From the NCBI GenBank assembly GCA_964392975.1, contig CAYMRU010000001.1:1-62424 (forward strand): a DNA stretch of 62,424 bases. The letters are read 5' to 3'. How positions within the stretch are numbered: the first letter of the stretch is position 1; every line of letters begins with the position of its first letter. This DNA comes from an uncultured Candidatus Poseidoniales archaeon (lineage in GTDB: Archaea > Thermoplasmatota > Poseidoniia > Poseidoniales > Thalassarchaeaceae). The translations under genes were made by a program, and so were the position numbers. Below, piece after piece: positions 1 to 55,440 of this stretch. A model generated the notes under the pieces. The model searched no databases and had not been told where the DNA came from. It saw only the letters and a list, made by a program, of their open reading frames with translations.

Positions 1-72
1 TTTAGCTGGTGGTTTAGCTGGTGGTTTAGCTGGTGGTTTAGCAGGTGGCTTGGTAGGTAGCGGAGGTGTTTG
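1..72 (-). repeat. 12-nt tandem repeat (unit tttagctggtgg). Three perfect copies at 1-36, one copy with a single mismatch at 37-48, and two degenerate copies up to 72. Encodes (PPAK)n on the minus strand.
   Basis: Direct reading of positions 1-72. The reverse complement of the unit is CCA CCA GCT AAA, which is P-P-A-K. Confidence 0.9.
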
Positions 73-15565: not shown

Positions 15566-16282
15566 TCAACCTCCGTAAATTTCACCCATCTTTGTGAATA
15601 ACTCAAATCCGGGCGACTCAACGAACTCGTTTATCTTATCCTCAGGTAAATCACCTAGTTCGCCGTTAATCATGGAGAAGAACTCTATGCGGGTCTCATC
15701 GTCCACAGATGCTGGATCGATTCCGACTTTCTCAAACAACTTGAATGAGTCCGAAGCTAGGAAACGTTGGATGAAATCTTCTGGCATGTCCCCTAGTAGA
15801 TTGTTGACTACGTCGAAGAATACCGCAAACTCGTCTTCAGAATCGTCTTCGATATGTTCCATATCTTCGTCGATTTCAGGGGATTCAGGTGCACTAATTA
15901 GCTCAACAGTGGGCTTGACGGCTCTGATTTCCTGTTGCTGTTTCTTCCTTAGAACGATAATTTCTCTATCCAACTCTGATCCGAATCTGTCGGAGAATCG
16001 ATCCAATAGAGTTCCAACTTCGCCTGTGGCAATCCTGTCGATATGACCATACATGCTATCTTTGGAATCAGGGGATAAATCTGGGTCACTGGCCTTTCTG
16101 CTTTCCCACTGTGATTTGAAATCGGTCGTAGATGCATCTTCATCCATATCGCCATCAATTTCATCATCAATGTTTTCCTCGATTGAAACATCTAATGGAG
16201 GGGGAGGAGGGGGAGGAGGTAGAGAAATACCCGGTGGTAACGGCGGGGGTGGCAAATCATCCATTTCATCAGCATCGCTCAT
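15566..16282 (-). CDS. hyper-acidic protein with an N-terminal poly-proline tract and two C-terminal repeats of about 38 aa; unknown function
   Basis: 238 aa. Has LPPPPLPPGISLPPPPPPPPL at aa 10-30. Internal repeats are DEFAVFFDVVNNLLGDMPEDFIQRFLASDSFKLFEKVG and DETRIEFFSMINGELGDLPEDKINEFVESPGFELFTKMG. I do not recognise a family. Confidence 0.6.
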   Translation of the reverse strand: MSDADEMDDLPPPPLPPGISLPPPPPPPPLDVSIEENIDDEIDGDMDEDASTTDFKSQWESRKASDPDLSPDSKDSMYGHIDRIATGEVGTLLDRFSDRFGSELDREIIVLRKKQQQEIRAVKPTVELISAPESPEIDEDMEHIEDDSEDEFAVFFDVVNNLLGDMPEDFIQRFLASDSFKLFEKVGIDPASVDDETRIEFFSMINGELGDLPEDKINEFVESPGFELFTKMGEIYGG

Positions 16283-17594: not shown

Positions 17595-17789
17595 CTAATC
17601 CAGATCTAAATCAATAATCTCTCTGCCCTCTGTGGAAGGTTCGGCCCCGGTAAGTTCGATGTATGCCTCCCAACACACAAACTTGTCATCGAGCACAATT
17701 GCCTCAGCGAATGTCATGGCCTTGCCAGTGTGGGAGCAAACAGGACCGAGTTGTCCGGTAGCCGTAGATAGTTTAGATGAGTCTGGCAT
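17595..17789 (-). CDS. hypothetical 64-aa acidic protein
   Basis: ORF only. It ends 10 nt upstream of the priS ORF on the same strand. No recognisable motif. Confidence 0.35.
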   Translation of the reverse strand: MPDSSKLSTATGQLGPVCSHTGKAMTFAEAIVLDDKFVCWEAYIELTGAEPSTEGREIIDLDLD

Positions 17790-17884: not shown

Positions 17885-18727
17885 ATGATGATTCGAATTG
17901 GTCACTCGCCTGATCCCGATGATGCATTCATGTTTCATGCATTGACTAATTCACTGATTGACACTGGTGACAGGAGATATGAGCATCGCCTTCTAGACAT
18001 AGAGACGCTTAATCAGAAATCCATGCAAGGCGAATTCGAAGTTTCTGCAGTTAGCATCCATTCATTTCCCAAAATCGCACATCACTACTCTTTGATGAAT
18101 TGCGGGGCTTCGATGGGTGAGGGTTATGGCCCTATCTTAATATCAAACAAATATACTACTTTAGACGAGGCCAAGAATTCAGTTATTGCCATACCCGGTA
18201 AGGGTACCAGTGCTTACCTTGCCTTGCGCCTTGCATTGGGTGATTTCGAAACAGCAGTAGTGCCATTCGACGAGATTATTCCCTCTCTGCAGAGGGGCGA
18301 ATATGAGTTCGGACTAATTATTCACGAGGGTCAGTTGACGTGGCCTGATTATGGTATGCATTGTGTACTTGACCTAGGAGAGTGGTGGCAAGGCATTACG
18401 AAGGGGCTTCCATTGCCACTAGGAGGGAATATAGTGCGTAAGGATCTCGGAGACAGTTTATGCAGAATTATTGCTGATGACATCAGGCGCAGTATTGTCT
18501 ATGCTCTGGAGAATCCTAGCGATGCTCTTGAATTTGCCAAGCAATGGGGTCGAGGAATCAATGAAGACACTAATCGACAGTTCGTAGGGATGTATGTTAA
18601 TGATAGAACAATTGATTATGGCCCTGATGGCAGGGAGGCAGTTCGAAGATTCTTAAATCAGGGCCAGCAAATTGGATTAGTCGATGAATCGTTTGATGTT
18701 GGTAGTATAAATTTCATTGGAGTATGA
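17885..18727 (+). CDS. mqnD: MqnA/MqnD-family protein, most like 1,4-dihydroxy-6-naphthoate synthase (futalosine pathway)
   Basis: N-terminal IRIGHSPDPDDAFMFHAL, IETLN, PGKGTSAYLALRL and GLIIHEGQLTW are collinear with MqnD-type periplasmic-binding-protein-fold enzymes. Confidence 0.75.
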   Translation: MMIRIGHSPDPDDAFMFHALTNSLIDTGDRRYEHRLLDIETLNQKSMQGEFEVSAVSIHSFPKIAHHYSLMNCGASMGEGYGPILISNKYTTLDEAKNSVIAIPGKGTSAYLALRLALGDFETAVVPFDEIIPSLQRGEYEFGLIIHEGQLTWPDYGMHCVLDLGEWWQGITKGLPLPLGGNIVRKDLGDSLCRIIADDIRRSIVYALENPSDALEFAKQWGRGINEDTNRQFVGMYVNDRTIDYGPDGREAVRRFLNQGQQIGLVDESFDVGSINFIGV

Positions 18728-18731
18728 TTGT

Positions 18732-19208
18732 ATGTCAGATAAGCCGGAAGTAAGTGAATTCGACTCAGTAGATCCAGCACCTGCAACTGAAGGTGGAATA
18801 GTCTCAGAATGGAGAAGTGTGATATGCAACGAAGACGAAAGGATGTTCTTGCGTATGCGTGCCTTGTTCGCGCTTAGGAATCAAGGTGGTCCAGAGGCTC
18901 TCGATGCACTTGCTGCAGCATTCTCTTCTGAGTCGGCACTGCTTAAGCACGAAATAGCATATGTCATGGGACAGATGCAGGATTCTTACGCGGTGCCATG
19001 CCTGATTGAACGTCTTAATGACCACGACGAAGATTTGATGGTCAGGCACGAAGCAGCCGAAGCTCTTGGCGCTATAGGTGATAGAGACGCTATGCACACT
19101 CTGAGGAGATATGTGGATGACCCGGAGCCAGTAATTTCCGAGTCCTGCGAAGTAGCGATTGATCTCCTTGAGTGGGTGGAGAGTAAGAGGCTAAACTACG
19201 AGGATTAA
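18732..19208 (+). CDS. half-size deoxyhypusine hydroxylase-like HEAT-repeat protein (two His-Glu motifs)
   Basis: RMRALFALRNQGG, SALLKHEIAYVMGQMQ, LMVRHEAAEALGAIG and DDPEPVISESCEVAIDLLEW match the signature strings of one half of eukaryotic DOHH as I recall them. ATG 18732 is preferred over TTG 18717. Confidence 0.7.
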   Translation: MSDKPEVSEFDSVDPAPATEGGIVSEWRSVICNEDERMFLRMRALFALRNQGGPEALDALAAAFSSESALLKHEIAYVMGQMQDSYAVPCLIERLNDHDEDLMVRHEAAEALGAIGDRDAMHTLRRYVDDPEPVISESCEVAIDLLEWVESKRLNYED

Positions 19209-20002
19209 TCGAGATTGGCCCATTCTGCACCTTCACTGCAACCGCAAACTTGTGTTAGATACATATCCAGTCCGCGTAATGCATCCGCATCTAGGCGATT
19301 CGATACCTCAGATTTGAAATAATTATCAAGTCGAGTCTCTGAAAGTCCAGTAGATACAGAGGCATTAGTGATAACTTGTAATCTCCATGGCAGGTCATTA
19401 TCGAATTTGTCTAGTTGGTTTAGCATATCAGAGTGAGCTCTTGTTAGTACAGATGTGTTGGTATCTTTCCTAGCGGCGAATACACCGAAAACCATTGGTA
19501 GCCCTGTCATTGAAGTCCATTCAGAGCCGAGATCCATTACAACCAGTTTTGGATTGGAAATGGACTCAAGAAGAGCCCTGTCACCAATGATCAAGGCACC
19601 ATCGCACTCGGACAACATCTGTTCAAGGTCGGGGGCCATCTCTACACGTCTTGGATCCAATCCCCTCTCATCGAGTATCCAATCCAGGAGCTGTTTCGAT
19701 GATGAAGAATCTGTAGGAACGGCTATGTCACGCATAGATTCCAAAGGTCTGTTCCCGAACACCAATACCGAACCAGTATTGCCTCTGCTAATAATTGCGA
19801 GATCAGGAAGCAGGAATAATTCATCCTTGAATCTAGCGTAGTCTGCAGTTGGGATTGGTGCGGTGACACAATCACGCCTCATTACGTGCCCACAAAGCCA
19901 TGACGGAGGGGCTGAGAAGATCTTCCAGTTGTCAGATATTCCATTATACACCGGATCACAGTTGCAAAATGAAACTCTGCCCAGTACCTCAGTCCAACCC
20001 AT
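19205..20002 (-). CDS. mqnA: MqnA-like chorismate dehydratase (futalosine pathway)
   Basis: VSFCNCDPVY (compare ISYLNxxP), ALIIGDRAL and DLGSEWTSMTGLPMVFGVFAARKD are collinear with MqnA. Confidence 0.75.
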   Translation of the reverse strand: MGWTEVLGRVSFCNCDPVYNGISDNWKIFSAPPSWLCGHVMRRDCVTAPIPTADYARFKDELFLLPDLAIISRGNTGSVLVFGNRPLESMRDIAVPTDSSSSKQLLDWILDERGLDPRRVEMAPDLEQMLSECDGALIIGDRALLESISNPKLVVMDLGSEWTSMTGLPMVFGVFAARKDTNTSVLTRAHSDMLNQLDKFDNDLPWRLQVITNASVSTGLSETRLDNYFKSEVSNRLDADALRGLDMYLTQVCGCSEGAEWANLD

Positions 20003-49963: not shown

Positions 49964-52900
49964 CTACCTAGTTCGTAACTTCTCGTACAACTTGCCAGTC
50001 AATCGTGTATCGTGTTCCCAAGCGAATTCCTTCATCACTCTGAGGGCTTCCTTCTCCAAATCGGAATCGCCAACGAAGTCGGTGATTTCTATAGTGCCGT
50101 CTCTGGTATTGGCCTTGAAGGCGGCAATCGGCTCTTCATTGTGGAACACCATGTATGCTGAGCCGAAAGCGAATCTCTCCCTCAGAATGCCCCCGAAGTA
50201 GTGAATTAGATTATCTGAGGGCGGGACTACTAAATCTCGTGTCTTGCGTAGAGAAGAAGAGTCCTCAAGCATCTCCTGCCTGCCCCAGCAGATATCCTGC
50301 AAGTCATCTACAAGGAATCCTTTGATTAGAGTTCCATCCTCTTCGAATTCATGCATCACATCACTAATCTCCTCGGCTGAGAACGGTGACCCTGCAAGTC
50401 TCTCAACTTGCTTGAGTGATACCACAGGGTATTGGCTCACTAACTCCCTGAGATAATCTCGTTTGACTTCCCATAGGTCAGCGTCTTGCAGAGGTGTAAC
50501 GGTCTTGAACCCGCCACGATAGTCCTGAACCAAATGGCCACTGCGAACGAGGGGTGAAATCAGTTTCCTGAATTCAGCCCTCTTCATGGCGTGCCTGTCC
50601 ATGTACACAGTCGGGTCGTTGTGTTCACTGAAGAATTGCAGAATCTCCTCGTCCTCCTCGGATGCGATAATGTTGCGAATAGTGAGCAGTCTTTGGAAAT
50701 GGGCAAATTTTGCCCAGACCTGATGTCCCCTTAGACTGGTTCCCTGATGTAATTGATGGGCTGCGGCCATTGAATGTAAGTCAACTCGGAACATTTCGCA
50801 GCGACCCCTTAGAGCAAAGTCGTCTCTGACTTCTCTCAAATGCTCCAGTGCCATAGTTTCGTTTTCGAATCTGCTGTCTTGATGCATTCTATGCTGATTG
50901 AACAGCATCCTGTATACCTCTCTGCGTGAACGAGGTTCTACCACACCTCCTCTGATGTAGCGTTCTCCATCTCCCATCGAGGAGAATCCCAAATCGTTCA
51001 GGATGTTCTGTATGTTCTCGTCGCAGTCATGCACTGGAACTCCATTGAAGGCATGCAAAACAGATACGTCTACCAGGCGATCCCTGTAATTCTCAAGTAG
51101 CTCGGAGAATGCATCCTTGAACTCATCCAAGTAAGAATGGGGGATATTGATATCTTTAATCTCCAAGTAATCATTGACCACGAACATCAGAATTCGCCCG
51201 ATTGGGTCCACTCCCTTGAAGACCGGATGATACCAACCCTGCTTGAGTATCAGACGAATCTCGTTGATGAATCGGCTGCAAAAAGGATCTGACTGAGAAA
51301 GGATCCTCATCTTCCGATCTTCGGGAATTGGAGAAATTAGAGCCTCAGAGTCATGCTTGGAAGAGTAGTAATCGGTCGGGTCAGGCTGCAGTGCGACTAC
51401 TCTGTGTATTCTTCCATTTTCTTCAAGCTCACGCAGGGTATCAGCCAATTCCTCCACCGGTCGGCTTACGAAGAATCTGAGAGTATGCAGCCTGATAGGA
51501 CCAATTCTACCGATTAGCTCCACAAGAGCGTCTTCAAAGGGCAGCGGCTCGATTACCCCGTGGACTTTGTGGAATATCGCAAGGGAGCGTTTCCGATTAG
51601 GGACCTCTTGATATTGCTTGTAGACAGTCAACTGCCTCTCAAGGTTGTTCATCGCTCCTTTCAGGGTGCGCTGCAGGTGGGCGAATTCTTTGCCCTTGGG
51701 ATACTCTGCAAGCAATTCGGCTCTAGTGATGCCCTGTTCGGGTATCTTATCCAACAGCTTCTGCTCCAATTCGCCCAACCAAGGATCGCTGCGAAGTCCA
51801 GTGAGTATCGGAATCATGCTCTTGAGAGTATACCCTACTCTATTGTGTAAAAGCCTCCCATTCACCACATCAGAGTCATGTTTGATATCCTTCCAGTCTC
51901 TGAATCTGTAGTTTTTGACTCTGTGGAACAACTCGTCCCGCCTCTGAATCAGGATTGAAGAGCGGATGGCTTCGGATGGCTCATCGTGACTCTTGAATGA
52001 CTTGTTGAGCAATAGCGTCTGCAGGGTCCTGTAGTCAACAACATCGATACTTCCGCCAGTGATTCTGTACTCATCCATTCTTAGGATGTATTCCCCTTCG
52101 TCAGTTTGCTTGAAGAAGCCGATTGAGACGAGATTACGCATCTCGAGCTCTTGCAGAACGGATTCCACTTGGGATTGTGGGAAAGGCAGACGGGCACAGA
52201 TGGTATCTGAGGTCTGTGGCCCCTCAGAGCCGAGCATATCTAGCAACTTCAGTCGCAGGCAATCCAACGGATCTGAAAGATTGGTCTGTTTCCATTTGGC
52301 TGGTGTTCCATCAGTGAAATCTACACCTTTTTCAAAATTCAGGCCACCAGTGTACAAGTCCTTGAGGTCATCCATCTCAGCTGCACCTGCTACAGCTAGA
52401 CAACCCAGAGTTCCGTGGACGTCTGCCATTCTGATAGAGAACCACTTGCCGTCTATCTGCTCGTGGCCAGTCTTACGTATCTTGGTAATCAGACCACGCT
52501 CTGCCAGTTCATAGACCCAAGAACGGACTTTCTTCATGTCTATTCCTCTCAATTTGTCATTGTACAAGGGGTTAGTTAGTCCGGGCTCCAAGCCACCGCC
52601 CATATCCATCAGTCTGAGCAGACCATTGGCGTTAGTCGGTACTGAGACCTTTGACTGGTAATACTCTGCCAGTTTGTCCTCGTCCAACTCAGTAGCGAGT
52701 GACCTCGCACCTAGCAGTCGTCGTAGAATCTCGGGATCGACGTCCTTGATTAGATACGCACGGGTCCTTAGAGAGAGTAGGTCCTCAAATGAGGACATGA
52801 ACAGAGTCATGCCCAGAGGAGAGGGCATCTTTACCCTGCGATGCACAATTCTAACATCCTCACTGTCCATCCTAGAGATGAAATCATCTAACTGCCTCAT

Positions 52901-55255
52901 ATCCAAGTCGTTGTGAAGAATCTCATTAACTACCTCTCGCACTATGACAGAATCGTCCATCTTGCGATGCTTCTGCATTATTCGCTCAGCTTTCTGCTGG
53001 AACTGTTTGGGACTGACTTCGTCGCCTCCGACACGTCTGGGATTCAGCATGCTTCTTGAGGAGACTTCTCTGAATCTCTTTGCGAATAACTGGGAGTCGA
53101 GCAGGTACCTCTTCAGCGTCTCGATGCTGTCACCTGCACGGAATACTTGTGGAATTCTCGAGATTTCGACCTCGTGACTGAGCTTAATCATGAATCCATT
53201 CTCATCAAATGAGATTTCGTGCACATGCACATTGTCTTCGGAGGCGATTCCGGCGAACAAATAACCCAAGGCCATGTTGAATGCTCTTCCTCTACAGGTA
53301 GTGATGATGTAAGTTGGAAGAGGTCCCTCAATCTGCTCTACGAGGATTCTGTCTAGTGAAGGGACCTGGAAAGTCATCGCGCCTTGTTCCTCGAAGAACT
53401 CCGATAGTGCGCTAGCTACAGGCGCGTTCAGACCGATTGCATTGATGAGTAATTTCCTAGAGTCAGTCTCCAGCCGTTGTCTCACTGAAATGTGTCCGAG
53501 GAGAGACAGGACCTCTTGGCTAAGTTCGAAGGTCCTGCTGTTGGCCTCACCGGTCCACGAAGGAATCGTAGGACGATACCCAGTAGCGGAAGAGACGTTT
53601 ACTCTGGTTCCGATGATGCTAGATACCCGATATGTGGAGCCACCGAGTAGGAAAACGTCACCGTTCCTCAGGCTAGAGACGAAGGAGGACGATAATTGTC
53701 CGACGAGAGTGCCGTCAGAAGTGAATACGAGGTAGTTATTGTCGGGAGCTATGGTTCCAATGTTGGTATAGTAGATCATCTGGGCGAAACCGCGCTTGCC
53801 GAAACGGTTCTCCTCCCAGTCTACCCATATCCTGCGTTCCTCATCCAATAAATCGAGTACCTCGATGTAATCATCGTAAGGAAGTGACCTATACGGCCAA
53901 GAAGAAGTGACTAATTCGTATCCCTCATCGATATCCCACTCCCTGATAATGGAAAGTCCGATTGTGAACTGAGCCAAAACGTCCAAGCAATTCTCGGGAA
54001 ACTTCAGCAAATCCATCGAGCCTTGCAGAATGGCATTCTGTAGAGAGACGATTTCTAACAAGTCGTGAGGAGCGGTGGGAAGGAAGCGTGCTCTCGGAAC
54101 GCCGCCAACATGGTGACCAGCCCTTCCAATACGTTGTAGGGCTGTCGATATGGACCCAGGAGATCCAACTTGTATCACAAGGTCTACAGATCCAATGTCT
54201 ATTCCCAACTCAAGGCTAGACGAGGAGACTACGGCTCTGAGTAAGCCATTCTTAAGTCGGTTCTCGACATCTAGCCTGATTGATTTATCCATCGAACCGT
54301 GATGTCCTTCGACGCCCTCCAAGCCGGCGATTTTTAATCTCTGTACCACAGTCTCGGTCATGTTTCTGGTGTTGACGAATACCAGTGTTGTGGTATGCGC
54401 CTCGACGAGTTCCTTGATACGGTCAATGTTGTGATCTAGAACTTCTTTCACGGGTGTAGATGAGAACCTAGCTGTTGGCAAGATGATGTCCATATCCAAC
54501 TCACGAGACCCCGATATCTTCGCAATCGAGACCTGTTGTGGACTCAAGTCACTCTCCCGAGAATCACTGGCGACAAGATATTCAGCGACTGATTCCAGTG
54601 GCTCCATTGTAGCGCTAATACCGATGCGCTGTACATTGGTAGGTACTACGGTATCCAACAGAGCCATCGACAAAGACAGATGAGTTCCTCTCTTCGTGGG
54701 GACAAGTGAATGCATCTCATCGATAATAATCCATCGCAACTCGTGTAGCAGTGGTCTAAACCGCTTGGAAGCAAGTGCCAGACCGAGCGATTCCGGAGTA
54801 GTGATGAGGATGTGAGGTGGTTTTTTTAGCATCCTTTCGCGCTCTTTTTGAGGGGTGTCTCCAGTTCGGAGTCCAACCTTGATATCCTTGGCCCTACTAG
54901 GCAGGAATCTATCCTTTATCTCGGTAAGTGGACCGATGAGATTCTTCTGGATGTCGTTGGCAAGGGCTTTGATGGGAGAGATATAGATGCATTGGACTGA
55001 ATCGCTGAGAGTTCCATCTAGTGATTTCCTCACGAGATCGTCGATAATCGAAAGGAATGCTGTCAAGGTCTTACCAGAACCCGTAGGGGAGCAAAGCAGA
55101 AGGTGTTCACCGTTCATGATTCTAGGAATGGCAATCTTCTGAGGGTCGGTGAAATCAGGGAATTTATCCTCGAACCAGTTTCTCACTGGCGCAGATAGAG
55201 TATCGAGGAGTTCCTCGGTATCCATACTGTCATCTATGTACTGAATTTCTGGCAT
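49964..55255 (-). CDS. lhr: Lhr-family large ATP-dependent helicase (1763 aa)
   Basis: Motif I CSPTGSGKT, motif II IIDEMHSL, motif III SATM, motif VI LQRIGRAGH, and a DEAD-associated domain. A long C-terminal region contains several winged-helix-like modules. Trimmed to ATG 55255. Confidence 0.9.
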   Translation of the reverse strand: MPEIQYIDDSMDTEELLDTLSAPVRNWFEDKFPDFTDPQKIAIPRIMNGEHLLLCSPTGSGKTLTAFLSIIDDLVRKSLDGTLSDSVQCIYISPIKALANDIQKNLIGPLTEIKDRFLPSRAKDIKVGLRTGDTPQKERERMLKKPPHILITTPESLGLALASKRFRPLLHELRWIIIDEMHSLVPTKRGTHLSLSMALLDTVVPTNVQRIGISATMEPLESVAEYLVASDSRESDLSPQQVSIAKISGSRELDMDIILPTARFSSTPVKEVLDHNIDRIKELVEAHTTTLVFVNTRNMTETVVQRLKIAGLEGVEGHHGSMDKSIRLDVENRLKNGLLRAVVSSSSLELGIDIGSVDLVIQVGSPGSISTALQRIGRAGHHVGGVPRARFLPTAPHDLLEIVSLQNAILQGSMDLLKFPENCLDVLAQFTIGLSIIREWDIDEGYELVTSSWPYRSLPYDDYIEVLDLLDEERRIWVDWEENRFGKRGFAQMIYYTNIGTIAPDNNYLVFTSDGTLVGQLSSSFVSSLRNGDVFLLGGSTYRVSSIIGTRVNVSSATGYRPTIPSWTGEANSRTFELSQEVLSLLGHISVRQRLETDSRKLLINAIGLNAPVASALSEFFEEQGAMTFQVPSLDRILVEQIEGPLPTYIITTCRGRAFNMALGYLFAGIASEDNVHVHEISFDENGFMIKLSHEVEISRIPQVFRAGDSIETLKRYLLDSQLFAKRFREVSSRSMLNPRRVGGDEVSPKQFQQKAERIMQKHRKMDDSVIVREVVNEILHNDLDMRQLDDFISRMDSEDVRIVHRRVKMPSPLGMTLFMSSFEDLLSLRTRAYLIKDVDPEILRRLLGARSLATELDEDKLAEYYQSKVSVPTNANGLLRLMDMGGGLEPGLTNPLYNDKLRGIDMKKVRSWVYELAERGLITKIRKTGHEQIDGKWFSIRMADVHGTLGCLAVAGAAEMDDLKDLYTGGLNFEKGVDFTDGTPAKWKQTNLSDPLDCLRLKLLDMLGSEGPQTSDTICARLPFPQSQVESVLQELEMRNLVSIGFFKQTDEGEYILRMDEYRITGGSIDVVDYRTLQTLLLNKSFKSHDEPSEAIRSSILIQRRDELFHRVKNYRFRDWKDIKHDSDVVNGRLLHNRVGYTLKSMIPILTGLRSDPWLGELEQKLLDKIPEQGITRAELLAEYPKGKEFAHLQRTLKGAMNNLERQLTVYKQYQEVPNRKRSLAIFHKVHGVIEPLPFEDALVELIGRIGPIRLHTLRFFVSRPVEELADTLRELEENGRIHRVVALQPDPTDYYSSKHDSEALISPIPEDRKMRILSQSDPFCSRFINEIRLILKQGWYHPVFKGVDPIGRILMFVVNDYLEIKDINIPHSYLDEFKDAFSELLENYRDRLVDVSVLHAFNGVPVHDCDENIQNILNDLGFSSMGDGERYIRGGVVEPRSRREVYRMLFNQHRMHQDSRFENETMALEHLREVRDDFALRGRCEMFRVDLHSMAAAHQLHQGTSLRGHQVWAKFAHFQRLLTIRNIIASEEDEEILQFFSEHNDPTVYMDRHAMKRAEFRKLISPLVRSGHLVQDYRGGFKTVTPLQDADLWEVKRDYLRELVSQYPVVSLKQVERLAGSPFSAEEISDVMHEFEEDGTLIKGFLVDDLQDICWGRQEMLEDSSSLRKTRDLVVPPSDNLIHYFGGILRERFAFGSAYMVFHNEEPIAAFKANTRDGTIEITDFVGDSDLEKEALRVMKEFAWEHDTRLTGKLYEKLRTR

Positions 55256-55440
55256 TTTCACTACCGTACAGCAGTCAGGGCTTCGATTGCATAAATGAAT
55301 GCTTCTGACCAGAGTATGCACTCGGAATCCGAACCAATGCAATTCCTACAACACTCGCATTCCGAACGATATGGGACAATCCACATGGTTGACTACTCAC
55401 TTAGGATGGCTTGAAAGTCTCCACTCGGACTCGATGCCTC

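What the first reader, a model, noticed from the sequence alone, without database searches (positions are those of the whole stretch)
18717..19208. Half-size deoxyhypusine-hydroxylase-like protein in an archaeon, embedded in the menaquinone (mqn) cluster
The 158-aa ORF (ATG 18732) is built of HEAT-like hairpins and carries exactly two His-Glu motifs, in the contexts SALLKHEIAYVMGQMQ and LMVRHEAAEALGAIG. These are flanked by RMRALFALRNQGG and DDPEPVISESCEVAIDLLEW. As I recall eukaryotic DOHH, these are its signature strings. DOHH is about 300 aa and consists of two symmetric halves, each donating two HE motifs to one di-iron centre. This ORF is collinear with a single half, and its N-terminal SVDPAP resembles the inter-half linker of animal DOHH. 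A stand-alone half would have to homodimerise to assemble the 4xHE di-iron site, so it looks like a pre-duplication form of the enzyme. To my knowledge no hydroxylase has been assigned for hypusine formation on archaeal aIF5A. The context is unexpected. The ATG lies 4 nt after the mqnD-like stop, an alternative TTG at 18717 overlaps that stop, and its own stop shares a TTAA with the convergent mqnA-like stop. An O2-dependent hydroxylase role linked to quinone chemistry is therefore an alternative. The same window encodes extreme poly-Pro tracts (16196-16252 and 1-72), which are the class of sequence whose translation depends on modified IF5A.
Basis: partly seen in the sequence, partly recalled or inferred. 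Interest (0 to 1): 0.8.

Follow-up and report, generated by a model that had tools for sequence, protein, structure and literature searches.

The report
Half-size deoxyhypusine hydroxylase in marine archaea
A 158-residue gene of a Marine Group II archaeon is a specific, strongly conserved relative of one half of the eukaryotic enzyme that completes the hypusine modification of translation factor 5A, an enzyme the hypusine literature says archaea lack.

Summary
ORF 18732-19208(+) is real and under strong purifying selection. It matches both halves of human deoxyhypusine hydroxylase (DOHH, PDB 4d4z; 116-118 bits and about 49% identity per half). Generic HEAT proteins reach at most 49 bits per stretch. 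All 197 unique orthologues keep both His-Glu motifs, the substrate-site Gly and an N-terminal SVDPAP motif. In eukaryotic DOHH that motif sits once, in the inter-half linker.

The gene is single-copy and collinear in 80 Poseidoniales (MGIIb) genomes. A published pangenome table auto-annotates it as a core function of both MGII clades, alongside deoxyhypusine synthase. No paper in the searchable library discusses it, and four papers from 2016-2021 state that archaea have no DOHH homologue.

Best reading (confidence 0.7): a homodimeric di-iron, O2-dependent hydroxylase acting on deoxyhypusinated aIF5A. A head-to-tail tandem model superposes on human DOHH at 1.2 Å, but that model is homology-driven.

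The "pre-duplication relic" idea is not resolved. The archaeal half, the eukaryotic N halves and the C halves form a three-way star, and the archaeal half is nested in neither. The mqn neighbourhood is conserved, but so is the whole block, and two genomes keep the gene without mqnD. The poly-Pro argument is weak.

The parts
18732..19208 (+). Coding sequence of the half-size DOHH homologue (158 aa plus stop): four HEAT hairpins preceded by an N-terminal arm.
   Evidence: ORF. Best PDB match is human DOHH 4d4z, E = 2.8e-68. Pfam HEAT_2 and HEAT_PBS. 197 unique orthologues. dN/dS about 0.05-0.07 where it can be estimated.
18753..18782 (+). N-terminal arm motif S-E-F-D-S-V-D-P-A-P (residues 8-17).
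   Evidence: Nearly invariant in the 197 MGII sequences. S[VI]DP[AT]P occurs once in 84 of 116 eukaryotic DOHHs, in every one of the 25 printed entries that has it lying between HE motifs 2 and 3, that is in the inter-half linker. It is absent from the 29 generic HEAT arrays checked.
18933..18980 (+). First His-Glu motif in context, SALLKHEIAYVMGQMQ (H73-E74 at 18948-18953; G80).
   Evidence: Aligns with human H56-E57/G63 and H207-E208/G214. KHE[IVL]AY is present in 196 of 197 sequences and the HE in all 197. H73, G80 and Q81 are invariant against 84 eukaryotic DOHHs.
19035..19079 (+). Second His-Glu motif in context, LMVRHEAAEALGAIG (H106-E107 at 19047-19052).
   Evidence: Aligns with human H89-E90 and H240-E241. 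RHEAAEALG is present in 197 of 197 sequences. R105, H106, E107 and E110 are invariant against eukaryotic DOHHs.
19140..19175 (+). Last HEAT hairpin signature ESCEVAIDLLEW.
   Evidence: Conserved at 99% or more in MGII. It matches the eukaryotic C-half consensus ESCxVALD and the N-half ending xEW.
18719..18722 (+). GGAG, 9 nt upstream of the ATG and inside the 3' end of mqnD: a possible ribosome-binding site, suggesting co-transcription with mqnD.
   Evidence: Read directly from the sequence. This is inference only.
17885..18727 (+). Context only: upstream MqnD-like gene (VitK2_biosynth), same strand, 4 nt from the ATG.
   Evidence: Pfam PF02621, E = 1.1e-66. Adjacent in 78 of 80 related loci, absent in L010 and L026.
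19205..20002 (-). Context only: convergent MqnA-like gene (VitK2_biosynth) whose stop shares the TTAA.
   Evidence: Pfam PF02621, E = 6.8e-42. In 12 loci it is separated from the gene by an inserted sequence of about 2.6-3.4 kb.

Best explanation
The gene encodes a functional single-half deoxyhypusine hydroxylase.

Proposed mechanism. Each 158-aa chain is a four-hairpin HEAT module that carries two His-Glu motifs. Two chains would pair concave face to concave face, as the N and C halves of eukaryotic DOHH do. H73, H106 and E107 of each chain would then each hold one iron of a di-iron centre. E74, E107 and G80 would line the pocket that receives the deoxyhypusine side chain of aIF5A. The enzyme would use O2 to convert deoxyhypusine to hypusine in these obligately aerobic archaea. 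The conserved N-terminal SxFxSVDPAP arm corresponds to the eukaryotic inter-half linker and would be present twice in the dimer.

What is shown: DOHH-specific homology, conservation of the catalytic and substrate-site residues, single copy, purifying selection, order-wide presence together with deoxyhypusine synthase, and compatibility of a tandem model with the DOHH fold.

What is inferred: dimerisation, iron binding, the identity of the substrate and the reaction.
For: 1. Specific homology. Both halves of human DOHH match at 115.5 and 117.9 bits, with 48.7% and 48.8% identity. The best single stretch against designed HEAT proteins is 48.7 bits. NblB and CpcE score 38.8 and 26.6 bits against cut-offs of 300 and 330.
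2. Functional residues. H56, H89, E90, H207, H240 and E241 anchor the di-iron centre in human DOHH. E57, E90, E208, E241 and the Gly of GQ[ML]Q bind the substrate (PMC9117371). Their equivalents H73, E74, G80, H106 and E107 are conserved in 197 of 197 MGII sequences and are invariant against 84 eukaryotic DOHHs.
3. The linker motif SVDPAP is shared. It and the HE-type motifs are absent from 29 generic HEAT arrays.
4. Selection. pN is about 0.09-0.11 while synonymous sites are saturated, and dN/dS is 0.045-0.069 where it can be estimated. At 67-86% identity it is the best-conserved gene of its block; mqnA and PriS are mostly about 50-60% identical, higher only in the five closest genomes.
5. 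Distribution. Relatives are found in 132 GTDB species-representative genomes. The best 80 loci come from 79 assemblies, one per assembly except UBA105 with two, and all are MGII. In a 250-genome pangenome the 'MGII Core' sheet lists one DOHH gene cluster in 119/158 and 72/92 genomes and DHPS in 153/158 and 91/92. [quoted passage not shown]
6. All MGII are described as obligate aerobes, which fits an O2-dependent enzyme.
7. A head-to-tail tandem of the protein modelled with pLDDT 92.5 and pTM 0.90. It superposes on 4d4z at TM 0.94 and rmsd 1.2 Å over 286 columns. The next hits have TM of about 0.4.
Against: - There is no biochemical evidence for iron binding, dimerisation or activity.
- The good structural model used an alignment of eukaryotic DOHHs and a network trained on 4d4z, so it is close to homology modelling. 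The alignment-free tandem run was poor (pLDDT 56.6).
- The modification state of aIF5A in MGII is unknown.
- aIF5A and DHS are not in this 62-kb window, so co-occurrence rests on a published table for the order and not on this genome.
- The genomic neighbours are quinone-biosynthesis genes, not translation genes.
- Hypusine-containing archaea such as Sulfolobus lack any such gene. This enzyme therefore cannot be the general archaeal answer.
Confidence: 0.7

Rival explanations
1. It is a DOHH-fold di-iron oxygenase recruited to another substrate connected with menaquinone (futalosine-pathway) biosynthesis or modification, and it is co-transcribed with mqnD.
For: The gene lies 4 nt after mqnD on the same strand, with a GGAG inside the mqnD 3' end. 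It sits between two MqnA/MqnD-family genes, next to an MqnE/MqnC-type radical SAM gene. mqnD is adjacent in 78 of 80 related loci.
Against: The whole block from the poly-Pro protein through PriS to transketolase is collinear in the same genomes, so adjacency is not specific to the mqn genes. L010 and L026 keep the gene without mqnD, and L010 also lacks the radical SAM gene. Twelve loci have an unrelated 888-aa beta-propeller/EF-hand gene inserted between it and mqnA. To my knowledge the established futalosine pathway has no O2-dependent hydroxylation step. The residues that bind deoxyhypusine in human DOHH are all retained.
Confidence: 0.1
2. Evolutionary rival; it does not change the predicted function. 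The gene is not a pre-duplication relic but a secondary reduction. A two-half DOHH, or one half of it, was transferred from a stem or early eukaryote into the Poseidoniales ancestor, and only one half was retained.
For: In the sources examined here, half-size relatives were seen only in Poseidoniales. The top 80 GTDB loci are all MGII. Only 2 half-size clusters appear among the best 150 representatives, both labelled Thalassarchaeaceae. The N-terminal arm equals the eukaryotic linker that precedes the C half. The last hairpin is C-half-like.
Against: The archaeal half is not nested in either eukaryotic clade. The observed NJ tree puts it exactly between 95 N halves and 95 C halves. It scores equally on the N and C profiles, 167 versus 168 bits. 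At positions that discriminate N from C it is a mosaic, with 21 N-like and 10 C-like columns. Consensus comparison gives three branches of similar length, with 12, 20 and 22 unique states. Any transfer from crown eukaryotes is therefore disfavoured.
Confidence: 0.3
3. It is a non-catalytic HEAT-repeat scaffold or a PBS-lyase-like protein whose resemblance to DOHH is only repeat-level similarity.
For: Pfam recognises only HEAT_2 and HEAT_PBS. NCBI names the orthologues 'HEAT repeat domain-containing protein'. Designed alphaRep proteins reach summed scores up to 158 bits.
Against: The per-stretch score to DOHH is more than twice that to any HEAT protein. The NblB and CpcE models score far below their cut-offs. 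Generic HEAT arrays contain no HE-type motif and no SVDPAP. Both motifs are invariant in the family.
Confidence: 0.03

Closest known systems
Eukaryotic deoxyhypusine hydroxylase (DOHH; human DOHH, PDB 4d4z; yeast Lia1; EC 1.14.99.29)
   Same: HEAT-hairpin fold. HE motifs in the same sequence contexts (LLKHExAYxxGQxQ and MVRHEAAEALG). The same substrate-site Glu and Gly residues. The same SVDPAP motif. About 49% identity to each human half. The tandem model superposes at 1.2 Å.
   Different: It has one four-hairpin half (158 aa) where the eukaryotic enzyme has an eight-hairpin dyad (about 300 aa). It has two HE motifs per chain, not four, so it must oligomerise to form a di-iron site. SVDPAP is an N-terminal arm here, not an internal linker, and would be present twice per dimer. 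The gene is archaeal. Its activity is untested.
PBS-lyase HEAT-like repeat proteins (CpcE/CpcF, NblB; Pfam HEAT_PBS) and the MTH187/alphaRep HEAT scaffold
   Same: The same repeat type, with the VRxxAAxALGxIGD framework.
   Different: These proteins have no His-Glu pairs at the equivalent helix positions and no SVDPAP. Single-stretch scores are 49 bits or less, against 116-118 bits for DOHH. NCBIfam scores are roughly a tenth of the family cut-offs.
EpmC/YfcM, the hydroxylase of beta-lysyl-Lys34 of bacterial EF-P
   Same: A functional analogue: the last, hydroxylating step in the modification of the IF5A/EF-P family lysine (described in PMC6105217).
   Different: It is an unrelated protein family. 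No sequence similarity was found or expected, and it was not tested here beyond its absence from the hits.

Membership tests
DOHH (deoxyhypusine hydroxylase) | HEAT-repeat hairpin fold, four hairpins per half. | tested here: met
   Pfam HEAT_2 at 2.4e-16 and HEAT_PBS at 1.6e-14. The model has eight helices per copy. TM 0.94 to 4d4z.
DOHH (deoxyhypusine hydroxylase) | Eight HEAT repeats forming a symmetrical dyad within one polypeptide of about 300 aa. | tested here: not met
   The ORF is 158 aa and aligns with a single half. 197 orthologues are 151-173 aa long. It is single-copy per assembly in the top 80 loci, apart from one MAG with two contigs.
DOHH (deoxyhypusine hydroxylase) | [quoted passage not shown] | tested here: inconclusive
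   There are two per chain (H73-E74 and H106-E107), in the DOHH contexts and invariant. Four would be reached only in a dimer, which has been modelled but not demonstrated.
DOHH (deoxyhypusine hydroxylase) | Substrate-binding residues (human E57, E90, E208, E241 and G63/G214). | tested here: met
   The equivalents E74, E107 and G80 are conserved in the MGII family. H73, G80, H106 and E107 are invariant and E74 is conserved in at least 90% across MGII plus 84 eukaryotic DOHHs. The residue list comes from PMC9117371.
DOHH (deoxyhypusine hydroxylase) | Conserved S[VI]DP[AT]P motif preceding the C half. | tested here: met
   Present in 84 of 116 eukaryotic DOHHs, once each, in the linker. Present at residues 12-17 here and nearly invariant in MGII.
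DOHH (deoxyhypusine hydroxylase) | Sequence similarity to DOHH greater than to other HEAT families. | tested here: met
   116-118 bits per half against 49 bits or less per stretch for other HEAT proteins. MGII halves score 167 and 168 bits on eukaryotic N-half and C-half profiles.
DOHH (deoxyhypusine hydroxylase) | Binds two Fe and hydroxylates deoxyhypusine on IF5A with O2. | not testable with these tools
   Requires biochemistry.
DOHH (deoxyhypusine hydroxylase) | Co-occurs with deoxyhypusine synthase and IF5A. | tested here: inconclusive
   Neither is in this window. At order level, DHPS is in 153/158 and 91/92 MGII genomes and the DOHH cluster in 119/158 and 72/92 (PMC6336850 Supplementary Data 10). 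No aIF5A entry was found in that table.
PBS-lyase / NblB HEAT-like proteins | Reaches the family-specific model cut-off. | tested here: not met
   NblB 38.8 bits against 300. CpcE 26.6 bits against 330. CpeY 18.7 bits against 600.
Futalosine-pathway (Mqn) enzymes | Homology to a known Mqn enzyme, or strict co-occurrence with mqn genes. | tested here: not met
   No Mqn family hit. L010 and L026 retain the gene without mqnD.

The most novel reading that the evidence does not exclude
The Poseidoniales protein is a living representative of the single-half, homodimeric ancestor of DOHH. On this reading the eukaryotic eight-HEAT enzyme arose by tandem duplication of such a gene: the C-terminal tail plus the N-terminal SVDPAP arm became the inter-half linker. 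The hydroxylation step of hypusine synthesis would therefore have originated in, or passed through, aerobic prokaryotes and would not be a purely eukaryotic invention.
Probability: 0.3. Interest if true: 0.85.

Novelty: new variant of a known kind. Interest (0 to 1): 0.68.

Why it matters
Papers on archaeal hypusination from 2016 to 2021 state that no DOHH homologue exists in archaea and that the archaeal hydroxylation route is unsolved (PMC5178350, PMC6105217, PMC7432094, PMC8153317).

Here an entire order of very abundant, aerobic planktonic archaea carries a strongly conserved DOHH homologue next to a universal DHS. This gives a directly testable first candidate for an archaeal deoxyhypusine hydroxylase.

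Its half-size architecture is also a natural experiment on how the pseudo-symmetric di-iron site of DOHH was built from a HEAT module. It offers a minimal, symmetric scaffold for mechanistic and structural work.

It does not explain hypusine in Crenarchaeota or in anaerobes, which lack the gene.

Automated pipelines (KEGG GhostKOALA, IMG) already label it DOHH, but nobody appears to have discussed it or noticed that it is only half an enzyme.

Tried and rejected
1. AlphaFold2 on the tandem without an alignment gave pLDDT 56.6 and pTM 0.39, which is unusable.
The accepted run had only eukaryotic DOHH rows.
3. Strict-monophyly bootstraps for the 95-taxon N and C clades were only about 10% because of rogue sequences. 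Placement of the archaeal clade among 200 replicates was split: 56 between N and C, 48 beside a subset of C halves (2-5 in the replicates printed), 28 beside a subset of N halves, 13 mixed and 55 not scored. The tree therefore cannot polarise the duplication.
4. With strict 60% thresholds only 3 columns discriminate N from C, so a log-odds profile was used.
5. Searches for aIF5A and DHS in the window were negative. These were size-matched ORFs against Pfam and a six-frame scan for the GKHG motif.
6. No compositional sign of recent transfer was seen. The gene has GC 0.491 against 0.477 for the window.
Two-half eukaryotic proteins outrank any distant half-size relative, so half-size homologues outside Poseidoniales could not be excluded.
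8. The cluster names that carried taxonomy gave nothing finer than Thalassarchaeaceae, Poseidoniales or Euryarchaeota. Every MAG name checked was MGIIb. Presence in MGIIa therefore rests only on the published table.
9. Park 2006, Wolff 2007 and Kim 2006 are not held in the library.
10. Pseudogene or eukaryotic contamination was considered and rejected. The gene is syntenic in 80 archaeal contigs and under purifying selection.
Full report
**Observation.** The ORF runs from ATG 18732 to TAA 19206-19208 and encodes 158 aa. The mqnD-like ORF stops at 18725-18727, four bases before the ATG. A TTG at 18717 is an alternative in-frame start. Bases 19205-19208 read TTAA and carry the stops of both convergent genes. 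A GGAG lies 9 nt upstream of the ATG. Homologues start M-x-DKPEVSEF and are mostly 157-159 aa, so ATG 18732 is the likely start. The window is archaeal. The next gene upstream of the small 64-aa ORF is the primase subunit PriS. The closest public contigs are Poseidoniales (Marine Group II) MAGs.

**Specific homology, not repeat-level similarity.** Pfam sees only HEAT_2 and HEAT_PBS. Against all PDB sequences, human DOHH (4d4z) is first at E = 2.8e-68. The protein aligns separately to the N half (residues 23-138, 115.5 bits) and to the linker plus C half (residues 143-287, 117.9 bits). The best single stretch against any designed or natural HEAT protein is 48.7 bits. Identity is 48.7% to the human N half and 48.8% to the C half; the two human halves are 42% identical to each other. 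The NCBIfam models for NblB, CpcE and CpeY score 38.8, 26.6 and 18.7 bits against cut-offs of 300-600. Among the best 150 representatives in a library of 1.84 billion proteins, 116 are roughly 240-480-aa proteins, nearly all matched in two stretches. The few that carry source names are eukaryotic DOHHs from Cucumis, Trichinella and EukProt. Twenty-nine giant HEAT arrays in that list contain no HE-type motif and no SVDPAP.

**Conservation of the functional residues.** According to the Park laboratory review, H56, H89, E90, H207, H240 and E241 anchor the di-iron centre. E57, E90, E208, E241 and the Gly of GQxQ bind the deoxyhypusine substrate (PMC9117371). The equivalents here are H73, E74, G80, H106 and E107. 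In 197 unique MGII sequences, KHE[IVL]AY occurs in 196 and the HE pair in all 197. RHEAAEALG occurs in all 197. Against 84 eukaryotic DOHHs, H73, G80, Q81, R105, H106, E107 and E110 are invariant. The N-terminal SxFxSVDPAP is almost invariant in MGII. S[VI]DP[AT]P occurs exactly once in 84 of 116 eukaryotic DOHHs, lying between HE motifs 2 and 3 in every printed entry that has it, that is in the inter-half linker.

**Distribution, copy number and selection.** A scan of one genome per GTDB species found 132 genomes with a relative. The best 80 loci (67-86% identity) all come from MGII MAGs. Fourteen MAG names that I looked up, plus 13 more that appear in the MGIIb AAI sheet, are MGIIb in Tully 2019. 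That paper's Supplementary Data 10 has a 'MGII Core' sheet. It lists one gene cluster annotated by GhostKOALA as 'DOHH; deoxyhypusine monooxygenase' in 119/158 and 72/92 genomes. It lists DHPS in 153/158 and 91/92 and agmatinase in 146/158 and 87/92. [quoted passage not shown] The main text of that paper never mentions hypusine, and it describes all MGII as obligate aerobes. Non-synonymous divergence from the nearest relatives is 0.09-0.11 while synonymous sites are saturated. dN/dS is 0.045-0.069 where it can be estimated. The gene's GC content (0.491) matches the window (0.477).

**Genomic context.** The order poly-Pro protein, PriS, 64-aa ORF, mqnD, half-DOHH, mqnA (convergent), MqnE/C radical SAM, transketolase N and C is kept in nearly all 80 loci. 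The adjacency to mqn genes is therefore real, but it is part of a much longer collinear block. L010 and L026 lack mqnD, and L010 also lacks the radical SAM gene, yet both keep the half-DOHH. Twelve loci carry an inserted 888-aa beta-propeller/EF-hand gene between it and mqnA. The half-DOHH is the best-conserved gene of the block. To my knowledge the futalosine pathway needs no O2-dependent hydroxylase. I therefore rate a quinone-related role as unlikely, although co-transcription with mqnD is plausible.

**Relation to the two eukaryotic halves.** I split 95 eukaryotic DOHHs into N and C halves and aligned them with 24 diverse MGII sequences over 130 well-occupied columns.
- Mean identities are MGII-N 42.2%, MGII-C 44.2% and N-C 37.2%.
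- MGII halves score 167 bits on the N-half profile and 168 bits on the C-half profile. N halves score 124 bits on the C profile, and C halves 138 bits on the N profile.
- In the neighbour-joining tree the MGII, N and C groups are each monophyletic, and MGII joins exactly between N and C. MGII monophyly has 96.5% bootstrap support, but its attachment point is weakly resolved.
- At columns that discriminate N from C, MGII is a mosaic. Twenty-one columns are N-like, mostly around the two HE motifs. Ten are C-like, mostly in the last hairpin. The linker-like arm is a further C-side feature.
- Comparing majority consensuses gives 12 N-unique, 20 C-unique and 22 MGII-unique states, which is a three-way star.

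The archaeal gene is therefore not a recent capture of one half of a crown-eukaryote DOHH. Whether it predates the duplication cannot be decided with these data.

**Structure.** A direct head-to-tail tandem of the protein is collinear with eukaryotic DOHH, with the C-tail plus the N-arm taking the place of the linker. Without an alignment, AlphaFold2 gave a poor model (pLDDT 56.6). With 84 eukaryotic DOHH rows it gave pLDDT 92.5 and pTM 0.90. That model superposes on 4d4z with TM 0.94 (normalised to the target) and rmsd 1.2 Å over 286 columns. The next PDB hits have TM of about 0.4. This shows that two copies are compatible with the DOHH dyad. It is essentially homology modelling and is not independent evidence for a homodimer.

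**Most likely mechanism (confidence 0.7).** Two identical chains assemble into the DOHH clam-shell. Each chain contributes H73, H106 and E107 to one iron. The di-iron centre activates O2 and hydroxylates C2 of the aminobutyl chain of deoxyhypusine on aIF5A, which DHS has made. The precursor may come by the agmatine route known from Haloferax, since agmatinase is core and no spermidine synthase entry was found; this last point is speculative. Homology, residue conservation, distribution and selection are shown. Dimerisation, metal binding, substrate and reaction are inferred.

**Comparison with the literature, and novelty.** Prunetti 2016, Bassani 2018, Chen 2020 and a 2021 review all state that no DOHH homologue has been found in archaea. 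Searches for DOHH together with Poseidoniales or MGII, for 'archaeal DOHH' and for K06072 found nothing. The only traces are automatic labels: IMG's 'deoxyhypusine monooxygenase' and the KO entry in Tully's supplementary table. NCBI calls the protein 'HEAT repeat domain-containing protein' or 'hypothetical'. The protein fails the architectural definition of DOHH, which is eight repeats and four HE motifs in one chain. It meets every residue-level criterion that could be tested. I file it as a new variant of a known kind.

**Limits.**
- The presence of aIF5A and DHS in this particular genome was not shown.
- MGIIa sequences were not seen directly.
- Half-size relatives outside Poseidoniales could not be excluded, because capped outputs are dominated by MGII sequences and two-half eukaryotic proteins.
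- The poly-Pro argument is weak. Only two ORFs of at least 150 aa in the window contain PPP, and the tract at 1-72 is a KPPA repeat.

Noticed in passing
window 1-72, minus strand: The segment encodes a (KPPA)n repeat, 'PPLPTKPPAKPPAKPPAKPPAK', at the C-terminal end of a protein that runs off the window start. It is not a pure poly-proline tract.
   Followed up: partly
window 15566-16282, minus strand: A very acidic 238-aa protein with PPPP and PPPPPPPP near its N-terminus and no Pfam hit. Syntenic homologues (35-81% identity) lie beside PriS in most of the 80 MGII loci.
   Followed up: partly
window 17595-17789, minus strand: A conserved 64-aa ORF between PriS and mqnD with no Pfam hit. It is present at the same position in nearly all of the related loci (39-92% identity).
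   Followed up: no
L022 6416-9082 (+); also L016, L021, L025, L028, L038, L041, L061, L065, L071, L073, L074: In twelve MGIIb genomes a gene of about 2.6-3.4 kb is inserted between the half-DOHH and mqnA. In L022 it is an 888-aa ORF with beta-propeller-like and EF-hand Pfam hits.
   Followed up: partly
L010 3223-4895 and L026 3567-4319: These two MGII contigs lack mqnD between the 64-aa ORF and the half-DOHH. L010 also lacks the MqnE/C radical SAM gene and keeps only a diverged (44% identity) mqnA-like gene.
   Followed up: partly
PMC6336850 Supplementary Data 10 (published table, not the window): Agmatinase (speB) is listed as core in MGII (146/158 and 87/92 genomes), but no spermidine synthase entry was found. 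This hints at the agmatine route to deoxyhypusine described for Haloferax.
   Followed up: no
L017 and L052 (both from MAG UBA105): Two contigs of one MAG each carry the complete syntenic block including the half-DOHH. This is probably strain heterogeneity in the bin, not paralogy.
   Followed up: no
window 49964-55342, minus strand: A very large ORF (1792 aa) that was not examined.
   Followed up: no
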